Shown in pieces: positions 4,107 to 35,012 of a stretch of 64,000 bases of DNA. The translations under genes and the position numbers were made by a program. Source of the DNA: Candidatus Woesebacteria bacterium (lineage in GTDB: Bacteria; Patescibacteriota; Microgenomatia; UBA8517); contig OY970314.1 of NCBI GenBank assembly GCA_963716475.1, forward strand, positions 74,479-138,478. The letters run 5' to 3'. The number at the start of each line of letters is the position of its first letter. Within the stretch, counting starts at the first letter, position 1. The notes below the pieces were generated by a model. It was given only the letters and a program-made list of their open reading frames with translations, was not told the DNA's origin and made no database searches.

Positions 4107-4121
4107 CCGAAGAGTAAATAA

Positions 4122-15350: not shown

Positions 15351-15380
15351 TTGACAAACGTTCCCATGGTTGGTAACAAT
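15351..15380 (+). promoter_or_regulatory. Promoter of giant gene 1: TTGACA-N11-GGTTGGTAACAAT
   Basis: TTGACA at 15351-15356 and TGgTAACAA extended -10-like at 15371-15379. The same 13-mer at the same spacing recurs upstream of giant gene 2. Confidence 0.5.
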
Positions 15381-15394: not shown

Positions 15395-18300
15395 ATGCCC
15401 ACAAAAGAAAAAATCTCCGCGGTAAAAAAAGTTTTGGAAGGAATTTCTGTCTCTTCTGTTGCATCTGAGGCCGGGGTTGCCAGAAAAACAATATATTCGT
15501 GGCTAAATATTTATAAAGCCGCTGCCAAAAGAAACAAAAAAACCTGTCTCTTGCCCAAATATGTGGCGGGAAGGGCTCACCCGAGGGAATATACGCACAC
15601 TTTGGAGCAGAAGACAGTAAGACTAATAAAGAAGGACCCGACACTTAGCGTTTCCAAAATGGCTGAAAGATTAAACGCAGGACATCATGCGGTTTACAAT
15701 CTTTTAAAGGCCTTAAAATTGAACACAGAAGATTCCAGGCTTGCATACTCCCGGATTTACTCATATCCCGGTATTTTTGACCCCCAAATTAAGGAATCGG
15801 TTGCAAGGAAAATTGTGAATTCGGAAGGAAAAGTCACGGATATTTCCAGGGAGCTACGGGTTTCCAGAAAGACTATATATAAATGGTTAAAAGAATACAA
15901 AGAGAAGGGAACAGTAAGAAATAACTATTTGAAAGGTTTTGAACACCCCAGATCACTTGGCCCGGAGGCGGAAGCGTCAGTGCTCTCGCAAGTCGTAAAG
16001 GCGCCGGAACTTTCAATTCATGCCTTGGCCACCGGTTTAAACTTTTCCAATCATGCGGTTTTTAATATTCTAAAAAGAAATTTCCTGACTCAAAGAAATG
16101 CCAGGATTATCTATTCTCAGGCTCAGGCTATCCGGGTTTCCGAAAAACCGGAAGCTATCGGTTTTATCGACAGGATAAAGAGTGTTTTTGAAACCTTTAC
16201 TCCGAATCTGGCCCCGGCTCCGCCTCCGGGGGGAAAATCCAAGTTTAGCCCTCTTCTTAAAATCTCCCTGGCTTCGATAATCGTTTTACCGCTTTTCACT
16301 CTTGCCCTGGTCTATTGGGTGAATCTATTAAGGTCCGGTGCAGCAGGGAACGTCGTCGGGCTTATCTTTGCCACAATATCCCTGATTATGGGTACTTTCT
16401 TCTTTTTATATTCACTCAAATATTATTTTACGGTCGCTTTGGTTCTTTCCCGCACCCAGCAGGAAGGGTCAAAAAGCCGTACTTCTATCGGTCTTGAACC
16501 CAATCTCGATCACGTAATTCTCACAAAGAAGCCATACATATCAGTTCATATACCTTTTTATAATGAGAAGAATGTAGTAGAGCGTGCAATTGAGGCTTCA
16601 ACCAATTTCGATTACCCGGAGTATGAAGTGATTCTTTGTGATGATTCAACCGATGAAACAACAACCATTATCAGGGATTATCAAAAGAAATATCTTTCAA
16701 AAGGGGAGAGCTTAAAAATAACTACCAATAGTCAAGACGGCTGGGAGCTGTCCCATGTGGATGTCAGACCGGGAGTAACCCTTAAACATCTTCACAGGAT
16801 CTCAAGAGAAGGTTACAAGGGGGGAGCACTCAGGCTAGCTCTTACTCAGACTGATCCCAGGGCTGAGTTTGTCTCTGTCTTTGATGCCGATTTTGTTCCA
16901 TATCCTGATTCTCTAAACCTTTTCCTCAAGTACTTTAAAGCTGAGAATAACATGAGTGAGGATTATACAGTAAGTAAGGTTGCTGCGGTTCAAGGTTACC
17001 AGTGGCATGTACTTAATAAATCCGAAAACTGGATAACCAGGGGTGTCAGAAGTGAATATGCAGGTAGCTACGTTATCGAAAGAGCGGGAACTGAAATCTA
17101 TGGGGGACTAAAACAAATCTCGGGGTCAGTATATATGATTAGACGTAAGCCCCTAGAAGAAGTAGGCTGGGCCACATCAATCACTGAGGACTTTGAACTT
17201 ACTCTCAAACTATATAATGCCGGCTACAAGGTGGTCTATACACCTTATATACAAGCTCCTGCAGAATGTGTATCAACCCTAAGACGCTTAGTGAGGCAAC
17301 GTATGCGTTGGGCCGAGGGTCATTCTTTCAATGTCAAAAAGATGTTTGCAAAGCTTATGTTCTCTCCGAAACTTTCTTCTGCCGAGAAGTTTGAAACGGT
17401 TTACCTTGCCCCTTACTACCTTCAGGCATTCTTTTTTGTAGTCGGAACTCTTTCCTGGTTTATCAGTGAGACTCTCCTGCCTGCCCGTCTGCCTTTCTGG
17501 ACAGAACTTTGGGGATGGAGTCTGGTCTTAACCAACATGGTAGCCCTTCCCCTTATGAACACCGTCGGAATGTTCCTGGAAGAAAGTGAACAGAAGGACT
17601 ATACAGGAATACTATCATTCGTCGCTCTTTCATACCTTGTGGTCCCGTTTCAGGCCTACGCGGCTGTCAAGGGCTTTCTGGAGACCTCAGAAGGGCCTTG
17701 GTTTAGAACTCCCAAGACCGGTAGAATCACAGACGTCTTTGCCAGGGGTAAATTCTACAGGCTTATCAGACAGATCCTTCCCAGAAGAGCCACCTCATTC
17801 CAAAGTACTTATTCATACAACTACATTACCTTAACGACAGCAAATAATAGATTTAGCAATTTTAAAATAAAAAGGTCGGGAAATAAATATATTTCAAAAG
17901 CATTACTTACGGGATTAACGATTATTATTTTACTTTTGAATCAACTTAGCTTCTTTGCCCCGGGAGTACTTGCGGCAAGTCCTAACCCTACTATTGAACA
18001 ACAAATAAATTTTATGGATAAATTATACTCTACAACCAGCACGAGTGCCGCACCGGGCGATAATTCTTTAGGAATGTTTACTTGGAATGACTCAAAATAT
18101 AATAACGCAACTGTTAATATGGACTATGATGCTGGGAAAAGCGGAAACTTGTCTTATGGCCTAACTTCTGTGGGACTTTCTTTGGTTAATGGAACAACAT
18201 ACACACCGGCAATAAGGTATCAATGTCTTGCAGTGAGTGGAATAGCAACCGAATACGCTATTCCAGGGTTATATACGTCAGGTGGAGTTTTAGTTCAATT

Positions 18301-19282
18301 CTCAGAAGTTTCAATTTCTCTCGGCGAGGTTCCGGGTGGGAAATGTCCTACTTCAGCGAACAGAACACCTGCATATATTGCTGCGGCACGCCTAAGAATT
18401 GTACAGACAAATGCTACCGGAATTACAAATACCAGAAACATGATTGAACTGGGAGATGGTGAAACCATTTCAACAGGTACAACAGCAACTCAGCTAACTT
18501 ACCCCAAATATTGGCTTTATACATCGGGAAATTATGACGGGACTGTTACTACGACTTTTGAAGCGACTGTTTGGAGGGCCGGTGGCAGTTCATACACCGC
18601 CTACGTATGTCTGTATTCTACAGCAGGCAGTGAGATCGGGTGTGTGAGTACCACAAGTACATCCCCGGCTTACCCGACCGCAGTAAGCGTAACCCTGTCA
18701 AACGGAACCGAATATGAAGTAAGAGTCAAAGCCAGCGCAGCCGCAAAAACTGTATATATTGCAAACGCTAAAGTTATAGTTGATCAAGCAGCGGCAGGGG
18801 GAATTACCAAATTGGAAACAGTGCAACATTATAATAACACTCTGGCAACGGAATCAACATCTTCCTATGTTTCTAAGCAATTTTTAACCGAGTTTGTTTT
18901 GGATAACTGGTATGGCGGAACGTTTGCTGCCTATTTTGAGTCGGATATAAAGACTAATAACAGTTCAAATGCCTATTATGCTCGTTTGTACGATATTTAT
19001 AATGCTACCCCTATGGGAGAGATTACAGGTAATGATACTTCCTATGTTAGAAAAACCAGTTCGGATATATGGAGTTCTCTTGCTGCGGGTGGCAATACAA
19101 TGATAGACGTTCAACTGAAAAATAATTCGACCAGCACCACCTCATCATCAAATTCTTGGTTAATCATTAAAGTAACAAATTTACAAGTGCCCGAGAAGCT
19201 TATTTTTGCCCTGCCGTTGATATCCTTAATCCCGATTATAATTAAAAAAAGGAAGGAGATTCTATTAAATAGAAATGGTTGA
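15395..19282 (+). CDS. Giant gene 1: tandem HTH - polytopic processive GT2 synthase - variable ectodomain - VPE-CTERM protein
   Basis: 1295 aa. Two HTH modules ('VASEAGVARKTIYSWLNIYK', 'ISRELRVSRKTIYKWLKEYKEKG'). GT2 motifs 'CDDSTDET', 'FDADFVPYPD', 'QGYQWH', 'SITEDFELT' and 'RQRMRWAEGH'. Multiple TM segments and a Ser/Thr/Asn-rich C-terminal ~400 aa, ending 'VPEKLIFALPLISLIPIIIKKRKE'. Confidence 0.85.
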   Translation: MPTKEKISAVKKVLEGISVSSVASEAGVARKTIYSWLNIYKAAAKRNKKTCLLPKYVAGRAHPREYTHTLEQKTVRLIKKDPTLSVSKMAERLNAGHHAVYNLLKALKLNTEDSRLAYSRIYSYPGIFDPQIKESVARKIVNSEGKVTDISRELRVSRKTIYKWLKEYKEKGTVRNNYLKGFEHPRSLGPEAEASVLSQVVKAPELSIHALATGLNFSNHAVFNILKRNFLTQRNARIIYSQAQAIRVSEKPEAIGFIDRIKSVFETFTPNLAPAPPPGGKSKFSPLLKISLASIIVLPLFTLALVYWVNLLRSGAAGNVVGLIFATISLIMGTFFFLYSLKYYFTVALVLSRTQQEGSKSRTSIGLEPNLDHVILTKKPYISVHIPFYNEKNVVERAIEASTNFDYPEYEVILCDDSTDETTTIIRDYQKKYLSKGESLKITTNSQDGWELSHVDVRPGVTLKHLHRISREGYKGGALRLALTQTDPRAEFVSVFDADFVPYPDSLNLFLKYFKAENNMSEDYTVSKVAAVQGYQWHVLNKSENWITRGVRSEYAGSYVIERAGTEIYGGLKQISGSVYMIRRKPLEEVGWATSITEDFELTLKLYNAGYKVVYTPYIQAPAECVSTLRRLVRQRMRWAEGHSFNVKKMFAKLMFSPKLSSAEKFETVYLAPYYLQAFFFVVGTLSWFISETLLPARLPFWTELWGWSLVLTNMVALPLMNTVGMFLEESEQKDYTGILSFVALSYLVVPFQAYAAVKGFLETSEGPWFRTPKTGRITDVFARGKFYRLIRQILPRRATSFQSTYSYNYITLTTANNRFSNFKIKRSGNKYISKALLTGLTIIILLLNQLSFFAPGVLAASPNPTIEQQINFMDKLYSTTSTSAAPGDNSLGMFTWNDSKYNNATVNMDYDAGKSGNLSYGLTSVGLSLVNGTTYTPAIRYQCLAVSGIATEYAIPGLYTSGGVLVQFSEVSISLGEVPGGKCPTSANRTPAYIAAARLRIVQTNATGITNTRNMIELGDGETISTGTTATQLTYPKYWLYTSGNYDGTVTTTFEATVWRAGGSSYTAYVCLYSTAGSEIGCVSTTSTSPAYPTAVSVTLSNGTEYEVRVKASAAAKTVYIANAKVIVDQAAAGGITKLETVQHYNNTLATESTSSYVSKQFLTEFVLDNWYGGTFAAYFESDIKTNNSSNAYYARLYDIYNATPMGEITGNDTSYVRKTSSDIWSSLAAGGNTMIDVQLKNNSTSTTSSSNSWLIIKVTNLQVPEKLIFALPLISLIPIIIKKRKEILLNRNG
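19187..19279 (+). other. C-terminal tripartite sorting-signal-like region (VPEK / Pro-rich hydrophobic / KKRK)
   Basis: 'VPEKLIFALPLISLIPIIIKKRKEILLNRNG' at the extreme C-terminus of giant gene 1. The layout matches PEP-CTERM / archaeosortase signals. Confidence 0.65.
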
Positions 19283-19838
19283 AAAAAGGAAAATTATAAA
19301 TATTTTGCTTATAGCCAGCCTAATTTTGGCTTTACTGCCTTTTTATGTGAGCTTTCAGGATTTACTTACAAATATAGTTATGAAGGTAAATTTGTATAAA
19401 GCTTTACAAAACACAATTGTGCCATATGAAATGAAAGTGGTAGGCGGAATTATAAACCTGTTACGTTTTCCGATTAGCGCAGGCAGTAGTTATTTTTCAT
19501 GGAATATAGCCAATGGTAAAAAAGAAGCAGTCTATTTGGCCTGGAACTGTATTGGTTGGCAGACTATGATACTGTTTTTGGTGACATTAGTTACAGGTTT
19601 TTCAAAAAGACACCTCTTAAGTTCAAAAATTGAAGCTATTTTAATAGGAGCGCTAGGGACATATATAATAAACATTGTAAGGATTACTGTTGTTATTTTG
19701 ATCTATTTCTGGTTTGGCCGGGGGTTTGGAATAATATTCCACGATTACTTCTCATCTCTAATTACAATATTCTGGTTAATAGGGTATTGGCTGTTTGTTT
19801 ATAAACATACCCTAATAGAAAAATCCGTCGAAGAGTAG
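19275..19838 (+). CDS. Miniature exosortase/archaeosortase-like polytopic protein (cassette 1)
   Basis: 187 aa with about 5 hydrophobic segments. Motifs 'AWNCIGWQT', 'INIVRITV' and 'IFHDYFS' are conserved in the paralogues at 33555 and 41283. The ATG overlaps the giant-gene stop by 8 nt. Confidence 0.62.
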   Translation: MVEKRKIINILLIASLILALLPFYVSFQDLLTNIVMKVNLYKALQNTIVPYEMKVVGGIINLLRFPISAGSSYFSWNIANGKKEAVYLAWNCIGWQTMILFLVTLVTGFSKRHLLSSKIEAILIGALGTYIINIVRITVVILIYFWFGRGFGIIFHDYFSSLITIFWLIGYWLFVYKHTLIEKSVEE

Positions 19839-20437: not shown

Positions 20438-20467
20438 TTGACAGGTGTTAGGATGGTTGGTAACAAT
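20438..20467 (+). promoter_or_regulatory. Promoter of giant gene 2: TTGACA-N11-GGTTGGTAACAAT
   Basis: TTGACA at 20438-20443 and the 13-mer at 20455-20467, identical in sequence and spacing to gene 1. The -10-like hexamer ends 7 nt before ATG 20474, which suggests a leaderless mRNA. Confidence 0.5.
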
Positions 20468-20473
20468 GAATAT

Positions 20474-23400
20474 ATGCCCTTTTCCGAAGCTAAAAGAGAA
20501 AAGATCGTTTTATCCGTACTAAAGGATAATATTGCGGTTTCGGAAGTCTCCAGAAACTACTCTGTTGCCCGAAAAACTATTTACTCTTGGATAAAGAGGT
20601 ATAAAAAGGGAAGTCTTGCTCCACTATATACAAAGGGCAGGAAACACCCGGCGGCCGTATACCCGAAAGCCTATTCTTATATAAGTAGATGGGCTGTAGG
20701 GCACCCCAAGTGGGGATGCCGCACTTTGAGTAAAAGATTAAATGAAAAAGGAATCAGCTTGAGCTACGTTCAGGTTAACAGATTGTTGAACACAATCGGA
20801 GCGGAGACTTATGACAGAAGGTTGAATTATGCCAGAAACTTTGCCGGTCCGGGGAGAACCAGGGAGGATGTCAGGCTTGAAATTGTCAAAAAGGCCGTTA
20901 CCGGGAAAATTTCCATTACAACTCTTTCCGAAAACTACAAAGTTGCCCGTAAGACCATATATAAATGGATAGCGAAATACCGGGCCATTGGTAACATTAA
21001 AGATTCGTACGTCGTTGGTGAGGCTCATCCCAAGGCAATCTACCCGAAAATTACGCAGCAAGTACTCGACTTGGTCGTTACAAACCCCGGTTATTCGGTA
21101 CGCACTCTGGCTAAATCATTTCCGGCATCCTCTTGGACCATCTGGAGTATTTTAAATAGAAATAATCTGAATACATATAATTTAAGGCTCGAATATTCCA
21201 GGAATATATCTGAGGCTGCCGAAGAGAAAGTCTCGACAACGGGAGTTTCCGAAAGGATAAGATCTGTTTTTGAAAGCTTTACTCCAAATCTGGCTCCGGC
21301 CCCGCCTCCGGGGAAACGTAAAATCTTCAACTTCTTCATTATTTCAGTCTTCCTCTTATCAATATCCTTAGCAATTTTCTATTGGGGATCCGTAATTGTT
21401 CACGCTCCGAATATTGCCGGGTCCATAGGCATGATTTTTGCAGGCGTCTCACTGTCACTCGGAATGTTTTTCTTCCTTTATTCTCTTAAATACTATATTT
21501 CTACAGCGATAGTGCTTTCATATTCACAGAAAGAGGGCTTAGATGCCTCGAGAGTAAGCGCTACCGGCTTAAACTCAGACCTCAGTAACATTCATCTTGA
21601 ACGGCATCCTTATGTCTCGGTTCATCTGGCTCTCTATAACGAGAAGAATGTGGTGGAAAGACTGATGAAAGCAGCTACTTCTTTCGATTACGACAATTAT
21701 GAAGTAATCATCGCGGATGACTCAACTGATGAAACCACCGACAAAATCAGGGAGTTTCTGAAAACATTCCTTCCTAAAGGTGAATCGCTTCGGCAAACCA
21801 AAGGGGACGGGTGGGCAATGACAGAAGTTGACATAAGGAGCGGGGTTGTCTTTAAACATGTCCATAGAACCACAAGGATGGGTTATAAAGGGGGAGCGCT
21901 GAAGCTTGCCCTTTCTCTTACCGACCCGAAAGCTGAATTTGTTTCTGTCTTTGATGCCGATTTTGTGCCTTACCCAGATTCCCTGATGCTATTTCTTAAA
22001 TACTTCAAACTACAGAATAATGGATCAGAAGACTACAAAACAAGTAATACTGCATCAGTTCAGGGCTATCAGTGGCACGTACTTAATAAATCAGAAAACT
22101 GGATTACTAGGGGAGTCAGAAGTGAGTATGCAGGTAGCTACGTAATAGAAAGAGCCGGAACCGAAATCTACAAAGGCCTAAAGCAAATCTCGGGATCAGT
22201 TTACATGATCAGGCGCGATGTTTTGGAAGGAATAGGTTGGGGTACTTCTATCACTGAGGACTTTGAGCTTACCCTGAAACTCTACGAAAAAGGCTACAAA
22301 GTGGTTTATACGCCGTATATTCAGGCTCCGGCTGAATGCGTATCGACCCTAAGAAGACTTGTCAGACAACGTATGCGTTGGGCGGAAGGACATTCTTTCA
22401 ATGTCAAAAAGATGTTCGCAAAGCTTATGTTCTCTCCAAAACTTTCTTCCGCCGAGAAGTTTGAAACGGTTTATCTTGCCCCTTACTATCTACAGGCATT
22501 ATTCTTCCTCATCGGAACTCTCTCCTGGTTCATTTCGGAAACCATTTTACCCGCCCGCCTTCCTTTCTGGACAGAGCTTTGGGGATGGAGTTTGGTTCTG
22601 ACCAATATGATTTCACTGCCGCTTCTAAACACAGTCGGACTTTTCTTAGAGGAATCGGACAGAAAGGATTACTCGGGTATTCCATCTTTTATAGCTCTTT
22701 CATATATAGTTGTTCCGTTTCAGGCCTATGCGGCTGTAAAAGGCTTTCTGGAGAAGGAGGAAGGACCATGGTTTAGAACTCCGAAAACCGGCCGCATTAC
22801 GGATGTTTTCAAAAGAGGTAAGTTCTACAAATTTATTTCCGGGATCTTGCCGGGGAAGGCTGCCGGTTCTGCCACGAGTTATGATCTAAGTCCTTATCTT
22901 GCCCTGACCTCAGCCAATAATAGATTCAGCTCGTTCTCCATTCAAACAAGAAAAGGCAGAAGGTGGGTGGGAAAACTAATGCTAACCTCAATGCTTATTA
23001 TTTCCAATCTTCTTCTTTCTTTTTCTCCTTATATTGAATCAAGGGACGGCAACAGCCAACCTCCTCCGGGAACAGGTATTCTTATGGATGGCAGTACAAA
23101 AGGATCGGGAGGCAAGGTCAATTTAACTCCTGAGCAGCAGCAGTCTTTGGACAAATCGATTAAAGCGAATAACCAAAAAACAAGCTTTAAACTGGTTAGC
23201 GATGTCTCGGCAGCAGAAATATCCGGAGGCAGTGAGGTGAACACCTCCTTTGATGTTAAAAAGAAAGACCTTGAACTTAGCGGGGGAAATACCACCTTTA
23301 CAACTGATGAAAATCCCCAATTTACCTTAAAGCAGAACGACGGTTTTTGGGAATTTATCAAGAATATTTTCATTAAAGAAAAACCCTTGAAAGATCAGGT

Positions 23401-26400
23401 TGTTGTAACAGTTTTGGACTTAAAAGGTAAGGAGGTGGGAAGCCCGCAGGTGGTAGAAGGTGGAATTGATGATTTAAGTATAAATCTTGACAAAACAACC
23501 CTTACTCCGGGCGGATATACTCTTGAGATCAAAAGTGGGAGTAGCCCCGTTATCACCCAGGATTTCAGTTGGGGAGTGCTGGCAATAAATACCAATAAGT
23601 CGGTATATAGTCCGGGTGAAGACGCCTCCATTTCAATGGGGGTTCTTAATGAAGTTGGAGAAACGCTTTGTAGCGCGGGACTAACGCTTGATATTACAGA
23701 CACGGCAGGCACAGTTACCGCTTTAACCACAAAGGAGGGCACCATTAAAGTCAGCGATGAATGCAGCCTCAAGGGCTTCAGCCTGAAACCCGACTATGAA
23801 GCAGCCTACAAAACAACGGTTGCAGGAAAGTACAGCATGGTTCTGACTGCAGAGACTCTTAACGGCAAATATGTTATCAAGGGTTGGTTTGAGGCAAAAG
23901 ACTCGGTCGATTTTGACGTCGAAACGATTACGGCCTCCAGAATTAATCCGGTTTATGAATACCCGGTTATTTTTATAGTTAAGGCGGGTAAAGACTACAA
24001 TGGCATTGTTGAAGAAAAAGTCCCGGCCGGCTTTGAAATCAGTAAACTCAACGACTTAAAGTTGAATAACTATCTGGATTCTAAAGGGGAAAGTACGGCA
24101 AGCGGTAAACTTCAGGAGACACTGGTTAATGACGGTTCACAGGAGGCGGGACAAAAAACACTCCGTTGGATTGTTGACTGGAAAAAAGACCAGACTTATG
24201 TTCTTGCATACGCTTTTAAAGCGCCGATGGTCAGTCCAGAATTTTATCTACTCGGGCCGCTCTGGATCGGGGCATATGAGGGAGCGGGAGGTTGGCAGAT
24301 AGCCGCGGATAAGGTCCCTGCTGGGATTATTGTCGGTTGGCCGTCAACTGTAGCCTCAATTCCTAATCACTGGAGCAGGGTTTCAGGCGCGGCTCTTGAC
24401 GGGTACTTTTTAAGATCAGTAACAGCAACTGATCCGTCGGGTACTCCCGGAGGAAATGCCAGCCATACTCATTCACCGGCGAGTCATACTCATTCCGTTC
24501 CTGTCCATACACATACAGTTCCCGCTTTTGCCCAATCAACCAATACTTCGGCAACGACGGGTAACTCTACGGGTTCCGCCCGTGATACTCATACTCATGC
24601 GGCATTTAGTTCCGGAAATTCCAACGTAACCGTCAATAATGCCCAGACGGTTCCTTTTGCGGGACTTTCCAATGACCCCGATAATTCAACCGTCATCTGG
24701 ATCCAGTCGGACGGAGACCCGTCTACCGAAATTCCGGTAGGGTCTTATGTTTACTTTGACTCAAACACCATGCCGGGAGCCAACTGGGGTAGAGTAAAGG
24801 GAAATTACTTCCTTAAAGGTGCGGCAACGGGTTTAGGGGGAGGAACCGATACGGTAACAGGTTCCGCAACTCATACCCACGCCGCCTCAGCCGACCATAC
24901 CCATACTGAGGCTGCCCATACCCATTCAGGGAGCTCGGCAGGAGGTTCACTTGCTGTTTCCAGTACGGGAACTGGGTCTTACTCTCCGAGTGGCCATACA
25001 CATACCGTTACCTCAAGCTCCGTTGCGGCAACGGAGGGAGGAGCATCGGTAACCCCGACAGTCGGAGTGGCCGCTCCCTCGGGAGAACCTCCTTGGTACA
25101 AACTTAATATCATTAGTAAGTCTACAGGTGCTAATGAAACTCCTTTAAATGTCATTGCCATGTGGACCGGAACTCTGGCAACAATTCCCGACGGTTGGGT
25201 AATTTGTGACGGAACAAATGGAACTCCAAACCTGGGTACAAACTTTATCAAAGGCGCAAATGCCGACGGGGAGCTCAATACCACCGGGGGTTCCCTTACC
25301 CACACTCATGGGGCAGGCAATACCCATACACATACAATAAATGCTCACGTACACACCTGGACGGTTGGAGCTGCCTCCGGAACCGGTGTTGGATTAACGG
25401 GAAATGGAAGATCAGCCGTGGTCAGTACTCATACACATACCCTCAGCGCTGCGCAAACATCAAGTGGCGGAGGTTCAACAGGAACGGCAACTATTACGGC
25501 CGACTCGCAATCTAATCTTCCTCTCTACAAAGAGGTTGCCTACATTATGTATATCGGTAAGACTGTTGCCGGTAAAGCCTATTCGGATGAAGCAACCAGT
25601 ATCTGGGCCGGTTGTGACAACTCGACTGCCAGAATAAGTTTGGTAGTTAACGGCGGTACAGCCTCCACAACCTCATGCAGCAGTTCAGACGGATCTTTCA
25701 GTTTCAAGAATGTTACTCACGCGACAGATAATCCAATATCGGTATTTTTTAATACCGCAGGTAGCAATGCCGACAAAGGTGTGGCAGTTACTATCGCCAA
25801 CGATGCCACTACTCCGATTACCCTTAATCCCAGAAAAAATATTGTCTGGATGAGGAGTGAGAAAGCAACACCGACCATTACCAACTCCAATCTGGCTCAT
25901 TGTTATGCCTCAACCCCCGCAAGCTGTGCCAATGTCCCGTATTCTGCTTCGGGAGCCAATATAACCCTAACTACTGGAGTTGAGCTTCATGTAGAAAGCA
26001 GTATGACATATGATCCCGGGGGAACCACTGCAACCACCGGTACCGGAAGTCTGCATGTGGATGACAATGCTGTCGCATACTTGGATACTACTGGCAATAC
26101 CATTGCTAATAATATTTTAGTGGATGCCGGGGCGACCATTCATATTGATGCCAGTACGGCAGTAAACGGGGGAAATATCACGGTTACAGGTAACGGAATA
26201 GTATCTTCAGCCGCCGGAACCGTAACTATGGGGGCAAGCGGAACCATTGGGGGAGGATCAACAGGATCTACCTTCCAGTTAACAGATCTTGTTGTTTCTT
26301 CGGGGACTACAACCCTGGGGACGGATGCCGACAATATACTGGACTTTACCGGGGATATCAACGTTTCGGCCGGAGCCGTGCTTGCCATGAACAATAAAAC

Positions 26401-29400
26401 CGCTAATGTAGACGGAGGAAATCTGACGACAACTTCTACCGGGTCAGTTACCTGTTCAGGTTGTACGACTGGCGGTTTAACAATTTCAGGAGTCGGAACA
26501 ACAAATGGTATAGGCGGGGGAGGTGGAGCTATAACTTTATACAACCTGACACTTGACGGATCAACCAATACCACAACAGTCGGGTCAAGCGCCATTACGG
26601 TAACCAATGATGTAACAATAGGTACGGGAAGAACCCTGTCAGGAGCCGCATCAGGAACAATCTATGTGGGACACAACTGGGCCAACAGCGGCACTTACAA
26701 TGCCAACTCGGGAACTATTAATTTAAATGCAGCAGCCGATACTGTTCAACAGATAACAGGTGCGACCACATTTTATAATTTATATGTAGCTACTGGAGAT
26801 AGGATTATTAAATTTGGTTCATCAACCGCTTTTACCATTGATACCGGAGGAACCTTTACGGCAACAGGGGATTCCTGTTCGGCACTTGTGGTAATCCGTT
26901 CAACCACTTCCGGGAGTGCCGCAACAATTACCAAGACAGGTTCCGTTTCCTTCTCATATATAGATATACAGGATATCAACTTTTCGGCTTCTGCCTCGGC
27001 TTCTAATTCAGTCGATTCCGGAAACAACAGTAGTATCGTCATTGCAGCCAATAGCTGTCTTGGTGCATCAACCAATAACCAAGCCGCAACAGGTCATTCA
27101 TTCCAGAGAAAAGTATTCTATGATTCCGGGAATAATGTCTACTGGGGTTTCTACCATGACGGAACCCAGATCGAAGTCAGGTATTCATCAAATAGTGGCT
27201 CTACTTGGAATGTAGAAAATGACCATCTGGTACAAAATACCAACGACTTTTCCGTCTGGGACCAGACAATCTCCTCCTACTACGTCTTTTTGGCAGCCAA
27301 AAGCAGCGACAGTATTGTCTTAAGAAGAGGAACAATAACTTCAGGTGCAATCTCATGGGACAGTGAAACAACTCCGGTTACAGCCTTTACGGGGACGGGT
27401 TCAGGCGATTCTTATTCCTATCCCTATATCTCTGCCGATTCATCCGGTAATCTCTGGGTGGGAGCCAGATATTTTAACGGATCAAGTTATGTCTACAAAG
27501 CAGTCAAAAGTAACAATGCAGGAAGTGCTACCTGGACAAACGCTGCTTTTACCTGGGGAGATCCTTCTCAAATCTCTAATGATCAAGCCGACCCTAACGT
27601 TTTTGGCAATGTAGTATCCATAGGCTCGCTGAATATGTACGCAACATTCGTAGTAGGTACAACTATCAAAGGCTGTAAATACACCAATTCTCCTCCTGCC
27701 TGGAAGAATTCAGCAGGGACAGATTCATGCGTAACAACCGAGGGTAGTGGCGGCGGGGAGTCAACATATTTTGATAGCTTAAGTACCGGGTTAGTTGCGT
27801 ACTGGAAAATGAATGAAACTTCCTGGACAGGAGCGAGTAACGAGGTGGTTGATTCATCAGGCAACGGTAACAATGGAACTCGTGTAGGCGATGCAACAAC
27901 AACGGCTGCAGGGTTTTATAGGTCAGGAACGTTCGATGGGACGGGAGATAGGGTTTCTGTTCCTGACAAGACAGACTGGACATTATCGTCCGGAATAGAT
28001 CTGACATATTCAACCTGGATTAATTATACCGTATTGCCGGGGAGCACCAATTGGCCTGGTATTGTTGAAGGAGGTGATGATATGTATGGTTTCCAAATGA
28101 ATGGGCCCACTACCGGGAATATAGTTGTAGATTGGTGGGACGGTACTGTTGACCATACATCATCTTCGCAGGCTGTATCTGTCGGTACCTGGTATCATGT
28201 CGTGATAACTTTAGATTTTGGTGTAACTAATGGTTCCCATTGGTATTTTAACGGTAGAGACCTTGGAACTTTTACCGCACAAGATCGCAGTGTAAATCCT
28301 GATGCACTATATATCGGAGGTAGTGTTACCAATCCCGTTTCAAACAACGCTGTTAATGGAAAGATTGACGATCTGAGAATTTATAACAGGCTACTCTCTG
28401 GTGAAGAGGTTGCCAAACTTTATCAATATGCCCCGGATAGAGTCAATATCGACGATGCCAGTGATTTTAATGCTCCGTCCGGTAGACAAGTTGTTAGAGC
28501 GAAAAACGGGGATTTGTATACTTTTGTCAATGATGCGGGGACATGTGGGGTATGGAAGTCAACTGATGGAGCAAGTTGGTCAGAACAGGATAGTACTCAT
28601 CATAAAACTTGTATGAGTTATTCGGGGGTATCAATAGCGATTGATTCAACTGATAAGTTACATCTTTTATACGCTTCAGGATCCAACACCTTACAATATG
28701 ACACGTTTACTGCCGGGGCTTTTTCTATTCTTAATGAAAATATTTATAATGATGTTGGTGGCAATGGGCTAGGGGGTTTTGATATTGCTGTTGATGCAAA
28801 TAATATTCCCCACGTAGTCTATGTATACATAGACACGTTTACCGATAATCAACTTGGTTACGATAACCGTGTAGGTGGCGCTTGGAATGGTTCAGATGCT
28901 AACCCCGATACTGATAGTGTCGGATTGCTGTCTCCAACAATAGAGATTAATGAAACTGGGTATCCGGAAGTCTCATATATAAAGGCTAGTACTGGGGTTT
29001 TAGTGGCTAAGGCGGGAAACGGAAATGACCCCAATTTATGGGCAGGTTATAGTATAGATACGAGCGTTAATGTTACTGGCGGTCAGGGGGGTGCTTCAAT
29101 TGCAGTAGACACCTTGACCGGTAATACGTGGATAGCGTATGTCGACGGGGATAACGATATTTCTTTGGCAAAATATTCAGGGACGGATTATTCCGGATGG
29201 GAGACAGCCGGTAACTGGGCCACCGTGACCAGTAAAAGCGACGATGGGTACGACCCGTCAATTGCCATTACCGGACCTTCCGATATTTATGTTTTTTATC
29301 AGGATGATGGGGTGGCGGATAACGGAACTAATAAAAGGATCTCTTACGATATATATGATTCGATAGGAGAAGATTGGGCCGGGGAAGTTCCCCTACAAAC

Positions 29401-31624: not shown

Positions 31625-33550
31625 ATGAAAAGAAAATTTAATTTAAATGTTATCGGTAAGATATTTCTTTTGGCTTCGTTTCTAATACCTTTTGTTATTT
31701 ACCTTAAGACGCTTTGCCCGACGCTTTCCTCCTATGCTGATGCGGGAGAGTTCCCGACCTTTGCTTATATAAGCGGTTTTGCCCATCCTCCTGGGTACCC
31801 CCTGTATATTCTGATACTCAAGTTGTTCCTTTTATTGCCGGTCGCGGGGAGTGTTGCCATGAAAGCCAATTTGGCATCGGCATTTATCTCCGCGGCTTGC
31901 GTCGCCCTTACCTATCTTTGGCTGAGAAGACTAAAATTGGAAGAGGGCGTTGCCTTCACAACCTCGCAAATACTGGCCTTTACACCGATTTTTTGGAGAA
32001 ACGCGTTGATTTCCGAGGTCTTCGGTCTTCTGACGTTATTTATTGTTTTAACCAATTACATGTATCTAAGATGGACCGAGACGGGGGAGAAGAGGGACTT
32101 TTATCTTTTTCTTTTCTTTTGCGGTCTTGGCCTTTCCCATCACCAGCTTTTGATGATAGCTCTTGTTCCGCTTTTAGTGCATTTCATTATTACCAAGAAA
32201 TGGAAATTGATTAATTATAAAAATGTAATAATCGGAATAGCTCTGTTTTTGATTGGGTTCTTACCGTATTTATATATATTGTTATATTCTGCACCGCGTT
32301 GGCCTCTAATGAACTGGAACAACCCCAGCAGTTTGGTAGGTCTTAAGGAATTGATCACCCGTTCGACTTATGGCACTTTTACACTGACGAATCAGTATCA
32401 GGCGTCCGATTTAAAGGTACAGGCCTGGGGGATATTAAAGTTGATTTATAGTAATTATTCGCTTTTTGGAATCGTACTTTTTCCTTTCGGATTAATTTAC
32501 CTCCTTCTAAAAAAGAAGTGGGGCATGACCGCAACCAGCCTCTTTGTAATAATTGCTATTTTTCTTTTCTCCCTCTATTCGGGTATGCCGGTTTTGCAGA
32601 ACAGCCAAATACAATATCTGGAGCGTTTTCAACTTGCAAGCACGGCCTTTATGATTCTTATCATTGCCTTTGGAATTTCCTTTTTCAGGGACCTTGTTTT
32701 TTCCATTAAGCCTCTGAGAGTTCCGGTGCTAATTTTGTTCATGCTGATTCCGGCCGGCCTTGTCTATACAAATTACGCAAAAGTGGATCAAAGTAAAAAT
32801 TACTTTGCAGATAACCTTGCGGATGATATTTTTGCTTCCATCCCTAAAGACAGCATTTTTTTGATGGAGGGGGACAATGTCATTAATGATGTTTTTTATA
32901 ACCGCTACGTTTTGGGACAAAGGAAAGACATCATTTTTATCATAGGCGGACTTATGGACGCCCAGAGTCCCTGGTACCTACAGGAACTGAGGCGTTTTTA
33001 TCCGGACCTGGTTCTGCCTGAAGTTACCGACGACAGAACAGACTACTTAGACGCTTTCCTGGCAGAAAATTCGATAAAAAGGCAAATAATCTTGTATTTA
33101 CCCTCGCTTGAAAACGATTTGGGAATATACATCAATAAAGTAAATAGGGGAATTGTCTGGAAATTTGTCAGGGAGGATGAAGAAGTTTATCTGGGTGATG
33201 TTCAGGATGAAATCCTTGCGCTCACCGGTAGCTACAAAAACCTGAAAGGGAGATTAAATTATACGCTCGATTCTCCCGAATACGCTTTATTGAACCTTTA
33301 TACCCAACCTTATATTTATCTGGCTCAGATGAACGATGACGATCCTGTCTTATCAGAAGAGTACTATAAAAAGGCATTGGCAATTACGCCGGATAATTAT
33401 CAGGCTTTGACCGAGATGGGTGATGACTACTTGATGTATGGGGAGTATGAGAAAGCGGTCGCAAGCTGGAAGCAAGCTCTGAATTATATTTACGATAGTG
33501 ATTTGAGGGATGAAGTTTTGGCAAAAATAGACGAATACCAAAACCAGTAA
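31625..33550 (+). CDS. DUF2723 (TMEM260-like) GT-C membrane glycosyltransferase with C-terminal TPR repeats
   Basis: 641 aa. It has the N-terminal signature 'DAGEFPTFAYISGFAHPPGYPLY', about 10 hydrophobic segments and TPR-like 'EEYYKKALAITPDNYQALTEMGDDYLMYGEYEKAVASWKQAL'. It starts 12 nt after the giant gene 2 stop. Confidence 0.7.
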   Translation: MKRKFNLNVIGKIFLLASFLIPFVIYLKTLCPTLSSYADAGEFPTFAYISGFAHPPGYPLYILILKLFLLLPVAGSVAMKANLASAFISAACVALTYLWLRRLKLEEGVAFTTSQILAFTPIFWRNALISEVFGLLTLFIVLTNYMYLRWTETGEKRDFYLFLFFCGLGLSHHQLLMIALVPLLVHFIITKKWKLINYKNVIIGIALFLIGFLPYLYILLYSAPRWPLMNWNNPSSLVGLKELITRSTYGTFTLTNQYQASDLKVQAWGILKLIYSNYSLFGIVLFPFGLIYLLLKKKWGMTATSLFVIIAIFLFSLYSGMPVLQNSQIQYLERFQLASTAFMILIIAFGISFFRDLVFSIKPLRVPVLILFMLIPAGLVYTNYAKVDQSKNYFADNLADDIFASIPKDSIFLMEGDNVINDVFYNRYVLGQRKDIIFIIGGLMDAQSPWYLQELRRFYPDLVLPEVTDDRTDYLDAFLAENSIKRQIILYLPSLENDLGIYINKVNRGIVWKFVREDEEVYLGDVQDEILALTGSYKNLKGRLNYTLDSPEYALLNLYTQPYIYLAQMNDDDPVLSEEYYKKALAITPDNYQALTEMGDDYLMYGEYEKAVASWKQALNYIYDSDLRDEVLAKIDEYQNQ

Positions 33551-33554: not shown

Positions 33555-34127
33555 ATGAATCAAAAAGCGCTTTTTAAACAAATACTGGCAACCCTTGTAA
33601 TTATATTGGCAGTTTTACCTGTGATTGTGACTTTTTCGGCAGTTTTGACTTCATTTTTCGAAAAAATTAAGCTTTATGTGTGGCTTCAGGATCTGGCTGT
33701 TCCTTTTGAAAGCAGACTGGTTGCGGTTCTAATCCAACTCTTTGGAATCAAAGGAATTATAACCCCCGGCAGCAGTTTTGCCATGGTTTTGCGGACATCC
33801 TCGGGGACTTTTACCCCGGTTGCATTGGAATGGAACTGTTTGGGCTGGCAAAGCCTGATTCTATTGGGTCTTACCCTAATAACAGGCCTCAGGGGAGCTT
33901 ACACGGGTTTAAGTAAAGCCCAGGTTGTTCTTTTCGGAATACTCGGAACTTTTTTATCAAATCTATTCAGGATGGCTTTTATTGTCATTCTGGCTTTTTA
34001 TTGGAATTCATTTGCAGCTATGATTATCCATGATTATTTTGCCAGTTTTGTCGCTATCATCTGGATGTTATTTTTCTGGTGGTTCTCCTACAGGTATATT
34101 TTGGAGGAAAAACCTGCGGGAAACTAA
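33555..34127 (+). CDS. Miniature exosortase/archaeosortase-like polytopic protein (cassette 2)
   Basis: 190 aa with 'EWNCLGWQS', 'SNLFRMAF', 'IIHDYFA' and the tail 'FWWFSYRYILEEK' shared with cassette 3. It starts 4 nt after the upstream stop. Confidence 0.62.
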   Translation: MNQKALFKQILATLVIILAVLPVIVTFSAVLTSFFEKIKLYVWLQDLAVPFESRLVAVLIQLFGIKGIITPGSSFAMVLRTSSGTFTPVALEWNCLGWQSLILLGLTLITGLRGAYTGLSKAQVVLFGILGTFLSNLFRMAFIVILAFYWNSFAAMIIHDYFASFVAIIWMLFFWWFSYRYILEEKPAGN

Positions 34128-35006: not shown

Positions 35007-35012
35007 CCTGCC

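What the first reader, a model, noticed from the sequence alone, without database searches (positions are those of the whole stretch)
17231..17428. Chassis under strong purifying selection while ectodomains are unalignable (mosaic paralogues)
**Seen.**
- Genes 1 and 2 encode an identical 66-residue run, 'VVYTPYIQAPAECVSTLRRLVRQRMRWAEGHSFNVKKMFAKLMFSPKLSSAEKFETVYLAPYYLQA' (17231-17428 versus 22301-22498).
- I aligned ~130 nt by eye, from CGTATGCGTTGGG to CAGGCATT. I counted nine nucleotide differences, all at synonymous third positions.
- Gene 3 keeps the same block with conservative changes.
- Similarity stops abruptly after the TM that follows 'SANNRFSNF' (about 17975, 23030 and 37430).

**Inference.** The synonymous-only divergence argues against very recent duplication or gene conversion. 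It supports long-term constraint on the synthase module, combined with cassette-like swapping or rapid diversification of the displayed ectodomain. That pattern is typical of host- or phage-interaction surfaces.
Basis: seen in the sequence. Interest (0 to 1): 0.55.

Follow-up and report, generated by a model that had tools for sequence, protein, structure and literature searches.

The report
Conserved sugar-synthase genes with swapped ectodomains
Three neighbouring genes of an ultra-small (CPR/Patescibacteria) bacterium share a tightly conserved membrane sugar-polymerase core but carry unrelated outer-surface domains, and these domains have been exchanged between genomes as cassettes together with a partner processing enzyme.

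Summary
Genes g1 and g2 encode an identical 66-residue run (17231-17428 / 22301-22498) with 24 nucleotide differences, all synonymous.

The run lies around the QxxRW motif of a BcsA-like processive GT2 synthase. All three genes share one architecture:
- two transposase-like HTH domains;
- transmembrane helices, GT2 domain and gating loop;
- a junction helix, then a variable ectodomain;
- a 'VPE'-helix-basic C-terminal sorting signal.

Each gene has its own mini-exosortase gene downstream, directly adjacent for g1 and g3. At least 1,470 relatives exist, where named mostly Patescibacteria.

Purifying selection on the chassis is strong (omega about 0.03-0.08) and synonymous sites are saturated, so the paralogues are ancient.

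Ectodomain replacement is shown directly. A positional orthologue of g3 is 79% identical up to the junction and unrelated beyond it. The exosortase tracks the C-terminal module, not the chassis (71% versus 41%).

The stretch it aligned by eye (nine differences) is a roughly 110-nt gene-conversion tract between g1 and g2, with 94% nucleotide identity against 72-80% in the flanks.

The evolutionary pattern is ordinary. The fused synthase/exosortase-substrate system appears undescribed.

The parts
15395..19282 (+). g1: HTH-GT2 synthase-ectodomain-sorting-signal fusion protein, 1295 aa
   Evidence: ORF. Pfam HTH_28/HTH_23/HTH_32 and Glyco_trans_2_3. NCBIfam PgaC/CelA-like, far below the equivalog cut-offs. 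Identical to database protein P0001, from a 982,852-bp contig.
15395..16204 (+). g1 N-terminal cytoplasmic region with two transposase-like HTH modules (aa 1-270) and no DDE domain
   Evidence: Pfam and NCBIfam hits cover the HTH parts only. IS481 scores 57 bits against a cut-off of 224. The equivalent region of g3 has omega of 0.05-0.08 against orthologues.
16535..17344 (+). g1 GT2 catalytic domain with DDSTDE (16640-16657), DAD (16880-16894), TED (17180-17194) and QRMRW (17297-17311)
   Evidence: Motif coordinates. Nearest solved relatives are BcsA by sequence at E 2e-14, and BcsA and hyaluronan synthase by fold at E 6e-17 to 1e-13.
17231..17428 (+). The finding: a 66-residue run identical to g2 22301-22498. 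It covers a strand, the QxxRW interface helix, a short helix and the start of the next membrane helix.
   Evidence: 24 synonymous differences. Secondary structure from the AF2 model, residues 333-398.
17321..17428 (+). Probable old gene-conversion tract between g1 and g2 (partner 22391-22498)
   Evidence: 94% nucleotide and 81% third-position identity, against 72-80% and 43-53% in the flanks and 59-72% and 36-58% against 16 other homologues. Low-dS scan p = 0.008. g1 and g2 are mutual best hits only in and just downstream of the run.
17699..17722 (+). WFRTPKTG, a gating-loop-like motif (compare FxVTxK of BcsA)
   Evidence: Nearly invariant across 122 and 47 family members. The comparison with BcsA's motif rests on my knowledge of BcsA.
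17840..17947 (+). Junction: ANNRFSNF motif plus the junction transmembrane helix (aa 833-851). This is the chassis/ectodomain boundary.
   Evidence: Similarity to close relatives ends inside this helix.
17948..19183 (+). g1 ectodomain (aa 852-1263): S/T/N-rich, all-beta, with two confident jelly-roll-like domains
   Evidence: AF2 pLDDT 70.7, with residues 143-412 confident. Foldseek hits to CBM22/CBM51, SGBP-B, Cry/Vip3 and viral jelly rolls have low TM-scores. Composition. Relatives about 30% identical exist in other genomes.
19187..19279 (+). g1 C-terminal sorting signal: VPE, a hydrophobic helix with prolines, then KKRK
   Evidence: 72 of 122 family members end this way.
19275..19838 (+). 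x1: mini-exosortase (187 aa) cognate to g1
   Evidence: TIGR04178 at 38.3 bits against a cut-off of 23. Cys, Arg and His are invariant across x1-x3.
20474..31612 (+). g2: same chassis with a 2.9-kaa ectodomain. The ORF list starts it at TTG 20438, but that TTG is the start of a TTGACA promoter-like hexamer, so ATG 20474 is the likelier start.
   Evidence: Laminin_G_3 at E 9e-23; MG2, Collar and BNR_4 are sub-threshold. Internal repeat at aa 2480-2883 versus 2884-3287.
22301..22498 (+). g2 copy of the identical 66-residue run
22913..23023 (+). g2 junction motif ANNRFSSF plus junction helix
   Evidence: Similarity to P0006 (70% identity) ends at aa 856.
31520..31609 (+). g2 C-terminal sorting signal (VPEYLLLFLPLAPLLPFLSRVKKKR...)
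31625..33550 (+). GT-C-type glycosyltransferase (TMEM260/PMT_2-like) with TPR repeats, lying between g2 and its exosortase
   Evidence: Pfam PF11028 at E 4e-26 and PMT_2 at E 2e-9.
33555..34127 (+). x2: mini-exosortase (190 aa) cognate to g2
   Evidence: TIGR04178 at 32.2 bits; alignment A2.
35013..41273 (+). g3: same chassis (one HTH segment shorter), two extra membrane helices after the junction, and a 1.1-kaa ectodomain
36663..36860 (+). g3 copy of the block, 82% identical to g1 and g2
37311..37418 (+). g3 junction motif and helix. Nucleotide similarity to the positional orthologue (L081) ends at about 37343.
   Evidence: blastn gives 76% identity over nt 1-2331 of the gene and nothing beyond. 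BLASTP breaks fall at aa 787-806.
41196..41270 (+). g3 C-terminal sorting signal (VPENPLLLFGLYPLFAGFLKKLRRK)
   Evidence: The tail of L002 is nearly identical.
41283..41888 (+). x3: mini-exosortase (201 aa) cognate to g3
   Evidence: TIGR04178 at 31.6 bits. It is 71% identical to the exosortase next to the g3-like tail in L002, but 41% identical to the one next to the 81%-identical chassis in L080.

Best explanation
**What the stretch is.** It encodes the QxxRW interface helix and adjoining elements of a membrane-embedded, processive, BcsA/HAS-like GT2 polysaccharide synthase. That synthase forms the conserved 'chassis' of three ancient paralogous genes in a Patescibacteria (Microgenomates/Woesebacteria-like) genome.

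**Layout of each protein.**
- Cytoplasmic side: dual HTH, then two transmembrane helices, the GT2 domain, channel helices and a gating loop.
- Then one junction helix that carries the chain outside.
- Outside: a variable, S/T/N-rich, beta-rich ectodomain.
- At the end: a tripartite sorting signal (VPE motif, helix, basic cluster).
- Each gene has its own small Cys/Arg/His exosortase gene downstream.

**Shown here.**
- The chassis evolves under strong purifying selection, with saturated synonymous sites.
- Each paralogue has closer relatives in other genomes than in its own.
- The segment from the junction helix onward has been replaced by recombination: the ectodomain, the tail and the downstream partner gene(s).
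- The exosortase co-inherits with the tail and C-terminal module.
- The perfect 66-residue identity between g1 and g2 has two causes. Its first ~30 residues are family-invariant. The last 36 codons lie in a short old gene-conversion tract.

**Inferred, not shown.**
- The synthase extrudes a beta-glycan through its own channel.
- The tethered lectin/CBM-like ectodomain sits at the channel exit and binds the polymer or a partner-cell surface.
- The cognate exosortase cleaves at VPE, releasing or re-anchoring the C-terminus.
- The HTH region links the protein to DNA, either for regulation or as a tether.

**What the confidence covers.** The stated value applies to the identification and the evolutionary account. 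The inferred mechanism taken alone would rate about 0.35.
For: **Architecture.**
- Domain hits. Motif coordinates. Helix layout.
- The AF2 chassis model (pLDDT 82.5) matches BcsA, hyaluronan synthase, CesA and chitin synthases at E 6e-17 to 1e-8. By sequence the nearest solved structure is BcsA at E 2e-14.

**Selection.**
- omega is about 0.05 in the GT2 core of g1-g2, and pS is 0.69-0.84 for all three pairs.
- omega is 0.03-0.08 for HTH, GT2 and the chassis overall against two g3 orthologues.

**Ancient paralogy.** In the HTH, TM1-2, GT-N and GT-C segments the paralogues rank only 8th to 100th among each other's relatives.

**Ectodomain replacement.**
- g3 is 79-83% identical to P0047, P0054, P0058 and P0061 over aa 1 to about 800, with nothing after. 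g2 is 70% identical to P0006 over aa 1-856, with nothing after.
- L081/L082 share g3's flanking genes at 50-85% identity: MerR, beta-lactamase-like, GT2, a 446-aa protein, an epimerase and a GT4.
- Yet they carry a 253-aa 'LPV'-ended ectodomain followed by a 617-aa protein and YfhO, instead of g3's ectodomain and x3.
- The nucleotide break falls at about 37343.

**The cassette includes the exosortase.**
- x3 is 71% identical to the L002 exosortase. There the tail and C-terminal module are g3-like (56%) but the chassis is only 58% identical.
- x3 is 41% identical to the L080 exosortase, where the chassis is 81% identical.

**Pairing of substrate and enzyme.**
- Only g1, g2 and g3 carry the tail in the 64-kb window, against three exosortases.
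- A synthase with an adjacent exosortase is seen in most of the related loci examined.
- 72 of 122 family members have the tail.
- Cys, Arg and His are invariant in x1-x3.

**Conversion tract.**

**No ectodomain homology.**
Against: **Nothing is biochemical.**
- The polymer made is unknown.
- Cleavage at VPE is untested, and so is the fate of the C-terminus.
- DNA binding by the HTH region is untested.

**Limits of the computations.**
- Synonymous sites are saturated, so omega values are upper-bound-like estimates from NG86, not likelihood fits.
- The ectodomain profiles used for hhalign were shallow (1-21 sequences). Very remote homology, or a shared jelly-roll ancestry, is not excluded.
- The g1 ectodomain fold matches have low TM-scores (0.15-0.25).
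- The conversion tract rests on 36 codons (scan p = 0.008).

**Gaps in the pairing.**
- Some family loci lack an adjacent exosortase (L008, L010, L013, L016, L017).
- The tails match no curated sorting-signal model.
Confidence: 0.75

Rival explanations
1. **Concerted evolution.** The three chassis look alike mainly because intragenomic gene conversion keeps homogenising recently duplicated copies, not because of purifying selection.
For: A real conversion-like patch exists between g1 and g2 at 17321-17428 / 22391-22498. g1 and g2 are mutual best hits in segments 612-677 and 678-790.
Against: - Outside that ~110-nt patch, synonymous sites are saturated (pS 0.7-0.95).
- Third-position identity between g1 and g2 (0.40-0.53) is no higher than between g1 and homologues from other genomes.
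- Each paralogue has much closer relatives elsewhere.
- The same residues are nearly invariant across 122 family members from several candidate phyla.
Confidence: 0.07
2. **Divergence in place.** The ectodomains are homologous and have simply diverged beyond recognition under diversifying selection, with no recombination.
For: - The ectodomains are S/T/N-rich and beta-rich in all three genes.
- Same-type ectodomains evolve faster than the chassis. For g1 and its relatives the figures are about 30% against about 50% identity.
- A shared lectin/jelly-roll theme is possible.
Against: - At 79-83% chassis identity the ectodomains already show no detectable similarity, and lengths differ five-fold (253 against about 1,280 aa). 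The break is within a few codons of one helix.
- Modules recur in different combinations. P0104 has the g2-type N-terminal module with a g3-type C-terminal module. L002 and L008 share only the two ends of the g3 ectodomain.
- The downstream gene content changes together with the ectodomain.
Confidence: 0.08
3. **Artefact.** The HTH-GT2 fusion comes from an IS-element fragment inserted upstream of a glycosyltransferase gene, or from mis-assembly, and has no function.
For: The best NCBIfam hits of the N-terminus are IS481, IS630 and IS3 transposases. JGI labels some relatives '...glycosyltransferase/transposase'.
Against: - Only the DNA-binding part matches, and scores are far below the transposase cut-offs. 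No hit extends beyond it, so no DDE domain was detected.
- Most listed relatives, out of at least 1,470 found, carry the same HTH and GT2 domain set.
- The HTH region has omega of 0.05-0.08 between orthologues.
- All three copies are uninterrupted reading frames.
Confidence: 0.03
4. **Plain anchor.** The C-terminal 'VPE-helix-basic' tail is just a second membrane anchor, and the neighbouring exosortase-like protein acts on something else.
For: - The tail matches no curated sorting-signal model.
- The substrate is anchored at its N-terminal end by a polytopic enzyme, unlike known PEP-CTERM proteins (PMC1569441).
- Several family loci have no adjacent exosortase.
Against: - The window shows one exosortase gene downstream of each of the three tail-bearing genes, and no other tail-bearing ORF.
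- The exosortase co-inherits with the tail and C-terminal module rather than with the chassis.
- Members ending in 'LPV' lack the adjacent exosortase.
- The tripartite layout matches the definition of exosortase and sortase signals (PMC1569441).
Confidence: 0.12

Closest known systems
Exosortase G (XrtG) system of Firmicutes: Firmicu-CTERM protein + XrtG + XrtG-associated GT2 glycosyltransferases
   Same: - A small exosortase of about 190 aa sits next to a PgaC/CelA-like membrane GT2 and a protein with a C-terminal sorting signal. The host has, by general knowledge, a single membrane. The system's composition is as listed in PMC12854382.
- A PTPS_related membrane protein also lies 8 kb downstream, at 49791-52790. 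I recall that such a protein accompanies XrtG systems, but this is from memory and unverified.
   Different: - Here the GT2 and the sorting-signal protein are one polypeptide with an N-terminal dual HTH.
- The XrtG model scores 16 bits against a cut-off of 102.75. The XrtG-associated GT model scores 24 bits against 364.
- There are three enzyme/substrate pairs, one exosortase per substrate gene, with exchangeable ectodomains.
PEP-CTERM / exosortase (EpsH, XrtA) protein sorting linked to exopolysaccharide loci
   Same: - The tripartite C-terminal signal has a conserved motif containing Pro-Glu, then a transmembrane helix, then a basic cluster.
- The substrates are S/T/N-rich with little recognisable homology.
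- The partner is a polytopic protein with conserved Cys, Arg and His.
- The system is linked to polysaccharide biosynthesis genes (PMC1569441).
   Different: - The motif is [VI]PE-x, not PEP, and no PEP-CTERM model hits it.
- The substrate has no signal peptide and is fused to a polytopic enzyme.
- The ratio is one enzyme per substrate rather than one to many.
- The host is a CPR bacterium. From general knowledge these lack an outer membrane, whereas PEP-CTERM was defined in diderms.
BcsA cellulose synthase, hyaluronan synthase and chitin synthase (membrane-integrated processive GT2 enzymes)
   Same: - D, DxD, TED and QxxRW motifs, an FxxTxK-like loop, and interface plus channel helices.
- Best sequence and fold matches are to these enzymes.
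   Different: - No PilZ domain or other Bcs partner domain was detected, and there are two rather than four helices before the GT domain.
- The protein has added HTH, ectodomain and sorting-signal parts.
- Equivalog scores are far below the cut-offs (85 against 699 bits for CelA; 87 against 422 for PgaC), so the product is unknown.
Polymorphic-toxin style cassette exchange (CdiA-CT/CdiI, Rhs-CT/immunity); an analogy from general knowledge
   Same: A conserved N-terminal 'delivery' part has a sharply delimited variable C-terminal part, which is exchanged together with the gene immediately downstream that matches it.
   Different: The variable part here is a surface ectodomain with a sorting signal, and the co-exchanged gene is a processing enzyme or a GT-C glycosyltransferase. 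There is no toxin or immunity pair, and no evidence of antagonism.
Archaeosortase A / PGF-CTERM (S-layer glycoprotein anchoring)
   Same: Same enzyme superfamily. ArtC is the best specific NCBIfam hit of x1, at 31 bits. The C-terminal helix is removed and replaced by a lipid anchor in a cell with one membrane (mechanism from general knowledge).
   Different: Scores are below all archaeosortase cut-offs. The motif differs, the organism is bacterial, and the substrate is fused to a synthase.

Membership tests
Processive membrane-embedded GT2 synthases (BcsA/HAS/Chs type) | GT-A domain with D, DxD, TED and QxxRW motifs | tested here: met
   DDSTDE, FDADF, ITEDF and QRMRW are present in all three genes. 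They are invariant in 122 relatives.
Processive membrane-embedded GT2 synthases (BcsA/HAS/Chs type) | Overall fold with interface helices and a transmembrane channel, similar to solved synthases | tested here: met
   The AF2 model (pLDDT 82.5) matches BcsA with TMq 0.52 at E 6e-17, and Cv-HAS with TMt 0.57. This is a predicted model, not an experimental structure.
BcsA cellulose synthase proper | C-terminal PilZ domain with c-di-GMP control, and an equivalog-level score | tested here: not met
   No PilZ hit. CelA scores 85 bits against a cut-off of 699, and PRK11498 scores 59 against 992.
Exosortase/archaeosortase superfamily (TIGR04178, PF09721) | Signature HMM above its cut-off | tested here: met
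   x1, x2 and x3 score 38.3, 32.2 and 31.6 bits against a cut-off of 23. Some relatives carry PF09721.
Exosortase/archaeosortase superfamily (TIGR04178, PF09721) | Conserved Cys, Arg and His (proposed catalytic residues) | tested here: met
   WNC.GWQ, N..R and HDY are invariant in A2. The role of these residues comes from PMC1569441 and general knowledge.
Named exosortase/archaeosortase subfamilies (XrtA...XrtX, XrtG, ArtA-H) | Score at or above the subfamily model's cut-off | tested here: not met
   Best scores are ArtC 31 against 100, XrtG 16 against 102.75, XrtX 16 against 170, and ArtH 16 against 200.
PEP-CTERM sorting domain | Conserved motif, then a transmembrane helix, then a basic cluster at the extreme C-terminus | tested here: met
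PEP-CTERM sorting domain | Near-invariant Pro-Glu-Pro motif and a match to the curated model | tested here: not met
   The motif is VPEK, VPEY or VPEN. No NCBIfam hit appears even at E up to 10.
PEP-CTERM sorting domain | N-terminal signal peptide and no internal transmembrane helices (PMC1569441) | tested here: not met
   The N-terminus is a cytoplasmic HTH region followed by a polytopic synthase.
PEP-CTERM sorting domain | Cleavage by the exosortase | not testable with these tools
   This needs proteomics or reconstitution.
IS481/IS630 transposases | DDE catalytic domain and a score above the cut-off | tested here: not met
   Only the N-terminal HTH part aligns. Scores are 57-89 bits against 224 for IS481 and 50-54 against 100 for IS630.
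XrtG-associated glycosyltransferase (TIGR03111) | Score above the model's cut-off | tested here: not met
   24 bits against 363.95.

The most novel reading that the evidence does not exclude
**Proposed reading.** This is a Patescibacteria-wide, so far unnamed surface system in which one polypeptide does three jobs:
- it is a processive glycan synthase;
- it is the substrate of its own dedicated exosortase;
- through its HTH region, it is a membrane-tethered DNA-binding protein.

**How it would work.**
- The exosortase would attach the C-terminus of the ectodomain to the nascent glycan or to a lipid.
- The result would be a glycan-protein surface layer whose lectin-like outer modules set partner or host specificity.
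- Cassettes of ectodomain, tail and exosortase would be traded between genomes to change that specificity.
Probability: 0.25. Interest if true: 0.8.

Novelty: new variant of a known kind. Interest (0 to 1): 0.6.

Why it matters
CPR/Patescibacteria are thought to live attached to other cells, yet little is known of what their surfaces are made of or how specificity arises.

**What this family offers.**
- It has at least 1,470 members. Several copies often lie on one contig or in one genome, sometimes in tandem.
- It joins three things usually found in separate proteins: polymer synthesis, a displayed variable domain, and a sorting signal with its own processing enzyme.
- It shows modular exchange of the displayed part.

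**Consequences if the inferred mechanism holds.**
- It would give the long-unresolved exosortase question a compact test system, namely what exosortases attach their substrates to. Here the enzyme, the substrate and the glycan source sit in two adjacent genes.
- It would point to a concrete determinant of partner recognition in CPR bacteria.

**The evolutionary statement in the finding.** A conserved core with a variable surface part is ordinary in itself.

Tried and rejected
**Ectodomain homology.**
- Pairwise BLASTP of the three ectodomains gave only weak tail hits.
- hhalign of jackhmmer-built chunk profiles found only an internal g2 repeat.
- Pfam on ectodomain chunks at E up to 0.5 gave Laminin_G_3 as the only significant hit. 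MG2, Collar and BNR_4 were sub-threshold.

**Sorting signal and neighbouring genes.**
- The three tails searched against NCBIfam at E up to 10 gave nothing.
- NCBIfam on the neighbouring unknown ORFs gave nothing useful.

**Literature.**
- Searches for exosortase or PEP-CTERM together with Patescibacteria, CPR, Woesebacteria or Microgenomates found no relevant paper. The same held for cellulose synthase with Woesebacteria.
- The 2012 archaeosortase/exosortase paper I wanted (PMC3256604) is not held.

**Other searches.**
- Rfam and tRNA scans of the window found only two tRNAs, at 4035-4196.
- A first single-linkage clustering of ectodomains was too coarse. It lumped g2 and g3 through mosaic members, so I replaced it with module-level comparison.

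**Ideas rejected.**
- Recent duplication: dS is saturated.
- A transposase or IS artefact: there is no DDE domain, and the HTH region is under purifying selection.
- A nucleotide-level functional element as the cause of the low-dS patch: the patch is specific to the g1-g2 pair and absent from the 16 other comparisons.


Full report
**Observation.** The stretch 17231-17428 lies inside a 1295-codon ORF (g1, 15395-19282). Its counterpart 22301-22498 lies inside a 3.7-kilocodon ORF (g2, ending 31612). A third paralogue (g3) spans 35013-41273.
- Both stretches translate to the quoted 66 residues. They differ at 24 of 198 nucleotides, and every difference is synonymous.
Fifteen lie in the first 72 nt.
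- g3 keeps the block at 82% identity.
- Similarity between the three proteins ends at the helix that follows the ANNxFSxF motif.
- After that point BLASTP finds only weak matches between the extreme C-terminal tails. Profile-profile comparison finds no inter-gene match.

**What the genes are.** Each protein starts with two transposase-like helix-turn-helix modules and has no transposase catalytic domain.
- Next come two membrane helices, then a GT2 domain with the full motif set of processive synthases: DDSTDE, DAD, TED and QRMRW. A nearly invariant WFRTPKTG loop follows.
- The nearest solved proteins by sequence are BcsA cellulose synthases, at E 2e-14.
- An AlphaFold model of g1 residues 280-860 (pLDDT 82.5) matches BcsA, hyaluronan synthases, plant CesA and chitin synthases.
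- In that model the finding's run covers a strand, the QxxRW interface helix, a short helix and the start of the next membrane helix.
- After the gating-loop-like motif, one helix preceded by basic residues takes the chain outside.
- The outside parts are 412, about 2,830 and about 1,140 residues long. They hold about 30% S+T+N, against 15-20% in the chassis.
- The g1 ectodomain is predicted to be all-beta with two confident jelly-roll-like domains. These resemble carbohydrate-binding modules only loosely.
- g2 contains a significant Laminin_G_3 domain, an internal ~230-residue repeat, and sub-threshold MG2, tail-collar and BNR hints.
- All three proteins end with VPE, a proline-containing hydrophobic helix and a basic cluster. 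No other ORF in the window has this ending.

**The partner gene.** Each of the three genes has a 187-201-residue ORF downstream (19275-19838, 33555-34127, 41283-41888), directly adjacent for g1 and g3.
- Each passes the exosortase/archaeosortase signature model but matches no named subfamily model.
- The three are only 33-36% identical to x1 in the alignment, yet keep the Cys, Arg and His expected of these enzymes.
- A motif-helix-basic-cluster tail is the defining layout of exosortase and sortase signals (PMC1569441).
- About 370 similar mini-exosortases are found. They are named at best 'exosortase/archaeosortase family protein', and the named ones come from Woesebacteria, Microgenomates and Chisholmbacteria.

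**Distribution.**
- The chassis has at least 1,470 relatives at E <= 1e-10. Where named, most come from Patescibacteria, and most listed hits carry the same HTH and GT2 domain set.
- Of 122 members examined, 72 end in the [VI]PE-type tail, nine end in '...LPV', and most of the rest are truncated.
- Among species-representative genomes, a synthase with an adjacent exosortase recurs in Woesebacteria, Chisholmbacteria, Gottesmanbacteria and a few Chloroflexota MAGs. Several contigs carry tandem copies. Archaeal homologues are bare GT2 proteins.
- The window itself comes from a 982,852-bp contig of an unnamed organism.

**Selection.** Nei-Gojobori estimates on a codon alignment give these values for the GT2 core of g1-g2: pS 0.69, dN 0.10, omega about 0.05.
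- All three pairs have pS of 0.69-0.84, at or near saturation.
- The paralogues are only 30-35% identical in the HTH region.
- Against two orthologues of g3, omega is 0.03-0.08 for the HTH, GT2 and TM/gating regions where calculable. It is about 0.10 for TM1-2 and 0.34 for the linker/junction.
- The HTH domain is therefore a maintained part of the protein, not a decaying insertion.
- In the HTH, TM1-2 and GT2 segments, each paralogue has closer relatives in other genomes than in its own. The triplication is therefore old.

**Ectodomain replacement.** g3 is 79-83% identical to four database proteins over residues 1 to about 800, with no detectable similarity after. g2 behaves the same way with P0006, at 70% over residues 1-856.
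- One of the four, P0054, is a positional orthologue of g3. Its contig shares the MerR-like gene upstream (82.5%). Downstream it shares the beta-lactamase-like, GT2, 446-aa, epimerase and GT4 genes, at 50-85%.
- Yet its ectodomain is 253 residues long, ends in LPV, and is followed by a 617-aa protein and a YfhO-type protein instead of an exosortase.
- At the DNA level, similarity of 76% runs through nucleotide 2331 of g3 (window about 37343) and then stops.
- Modules also recombine within ectodomains. L002 and L008 share only the membrane-proximal ~200 and the C-terminal ~200 residues with g3. P0104 combines a g2-type N-terminal module with a g3-type C-terminal module.
- The exosortase travels with the tail. 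x3 is 71% identical to the exosortase beside the g3-like tail of L002, where the chassis is 58% identical. It is only 41% identical to the one beside P0061, where the chassis is 81% identical.
- This supports cassette exchange and also supports the enzyme-substrate pairing.

**The identical run itself.** The run is a composite.
- Residues 612-641 are invariant or nearly so across the family. Their synonymous sites are as diverged between g1 and g2 as anywhere else, with third-position identity 0.47. That is constraint.
- Residues 642-677 are only moderately conserved in the family, with median identity 0.64. Yet g1 and g2 are identical there, and the next best relative reaches 0.81.
- In those 36 codons g1 and g2 have 94% nucleotide and 81% third-position identity. 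The flanks show 72-80% and 43-53%. The same codons compared with 16 other homologues show 59-72% and 36-58%.
- A scan for low synonymous divergence picks out this place, with permutation p = 0.008.
- The simplest reading is a short gene-conversion tract between g1 and g2, old enough to have gained a handful of silent changes.

**Mechanism, with what is inferred.**
- Shown: the architecture, the conservation pattern, the replacement at the junction, and the co-inheritance of tail and exosortase.
- Inferred from family knowledge: the GT2 part polymerises and extrudes a beta-linked glycan.
- Inferred: the ectodomain, tethered next to the channel exit, binds carbohydrate or a partner surface.
- Inferred: the exosortase cleaves at VPE and either releases the C-terminal anchor or transfers the new C-terminus to a lipid or glycan.
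- Inferred: extra GT-C enzymes carried in some cassettes glycosylate the ectodomain or extend the polymer. Examples are 31625-33550 here and YfhO in L081.
- Inferred: the HTH region binds DNA.
- None of these steps can be tested with sequence tools.

**Comparison with known systems.**
- The closest is the XrtG system of Firmicutes, which combines a small exosortase, GT2 glycosyltransferases and a Firmicu-CTERM protein (PMC12854382). The specific XrtG models are not met, and here synthase and substrate are one protein.
- Classical PEP-CTERM proteins have a signal peptide, no internal helices, a PEP motif and many substrates per enzyme (PMC1569441). All of these differ here.
- I found no paper describing exosortases or this fusion in CPR bacteria. 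That search covers only the held library.

**Verdict.**
It needs one correction, the local gene conversion.
- As an evolutionary pattern this is ordinary.
- The interest lies in the system it exposes, which is best filed as a new variant of exosortase-linked surface systems.

Noticed in passing
window 15351-15380 and 20438-20467: The same promoter-like element (TTGACA, 18 nt, AACAAT, 10 of 12 matches) precedes g1 and g2, including an identical 15-mer ATGGTTGGTAACAAT. The TTG that the ORF list gives as g2's start is the first three bases of this TTGACA. g2 therefore more likely starts at ATG 20474, only 6 nt after the second hexamer and so nearly leaderless.
   Followed up: partly
window 34944-34961 / 34993-35010, and 34124-34435 (-): An 18-nt inverted repeat containing GTGTTAACA lies just upstream of g3. 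It is next to a divergently oriented MerR-family gene (103 aa) that is 82.5% conserved at the orthologous locus. It may be an operator.
   Followed up: no
window 31625-33550: A TMEM260/PMT_2-like GT-C glycosyltransferase with C-terminal TPR repeats sits between g2 and its exosortase. At the g3-orthologous locus of another genome, a different GT-C-type protein (YfhO) accompanies a different ectodomain. This suggests that cassettes bring their own glycosylation enzyme.
   Followed up: partly
window 24275-25717 (g2 aa about 1280-1760): His/Thr-rich repeats (..THTH..HTHT..) are preceded by 'IPxGW..CDG.NGTPNL'-like motifs. The Pfam phage tail-collar domain gives a sub-threshold hit (18.8 bits, E 0.0016). 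This hints at a tail-fibre-like module in a cellular surface protein.
   Followed up: partly
window 27875-30337 (g2 aa 2480-3287): Two ~230-residue internal repeats (hhalign probability 99.5) follow a Laminin_G_3 domain, with a sub-threshold BNR_4 hit. They may be propeller-like modules.
   Followed up: no
window 37608-37745 (g3 aa 866-911): g3 and its L002/L008 relatives have two extra membrane helices between the junction helix and the ectodomain, which g1 and g2 lack.
   Followed up: no
window 49791-52790 and 55558-60615: Downstream lie a 999-aa membrane protein with a PTPS_related domain (PF10131), three radical-SAM genes (one with a B12-binding domain), methyltransferases and GT4 enzymes. 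Together they look like a large glycan-modification cluster. From memory, PTPS-related membrane proteins accompany XrtG systems; I did not verify this.
   Followed up: no
window 10637-12841: A polyprenyl synthetase (- strand) and an unusually long (425 aa) undecaprenyl-diphosphate-synthase-like protein lie just upstream of the cluster. This fits lipid-carrier supply for envelope glycans.
   Followed up: no
L081 32-5305: The gene upstream of the g3 orthologue encodes a protein of at least 1,757 aa with Hint/intein-like domains. Its last ~160 residues resemble the C-terminal end of g2 at 36% identity.
   Followed up: no
L020, L023, L026; L021, L022, L025: Archaeal MAGs (Thaumarchaeota, Bathyarchaeota) hold 400-450-aa GT2-only homologues of the chassis core, at 30-50% identity. 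A few Chloroflexota MAGs hold the full synthase plus exosortase pair, with 'VDELGW' or 'VPERLW' tails. This could reflect lateral transfer or binning error.
   Followed up: no
L002/L008 (CAZIPM010000003.1), L010: Contigs labelled 'uncultured Gammaproteobacteria' carry tandem copies of this Patescibacteria-type gene family, at 71-76% core identity to the window. The taxonomic label is probably wrong.
   Followed up: no
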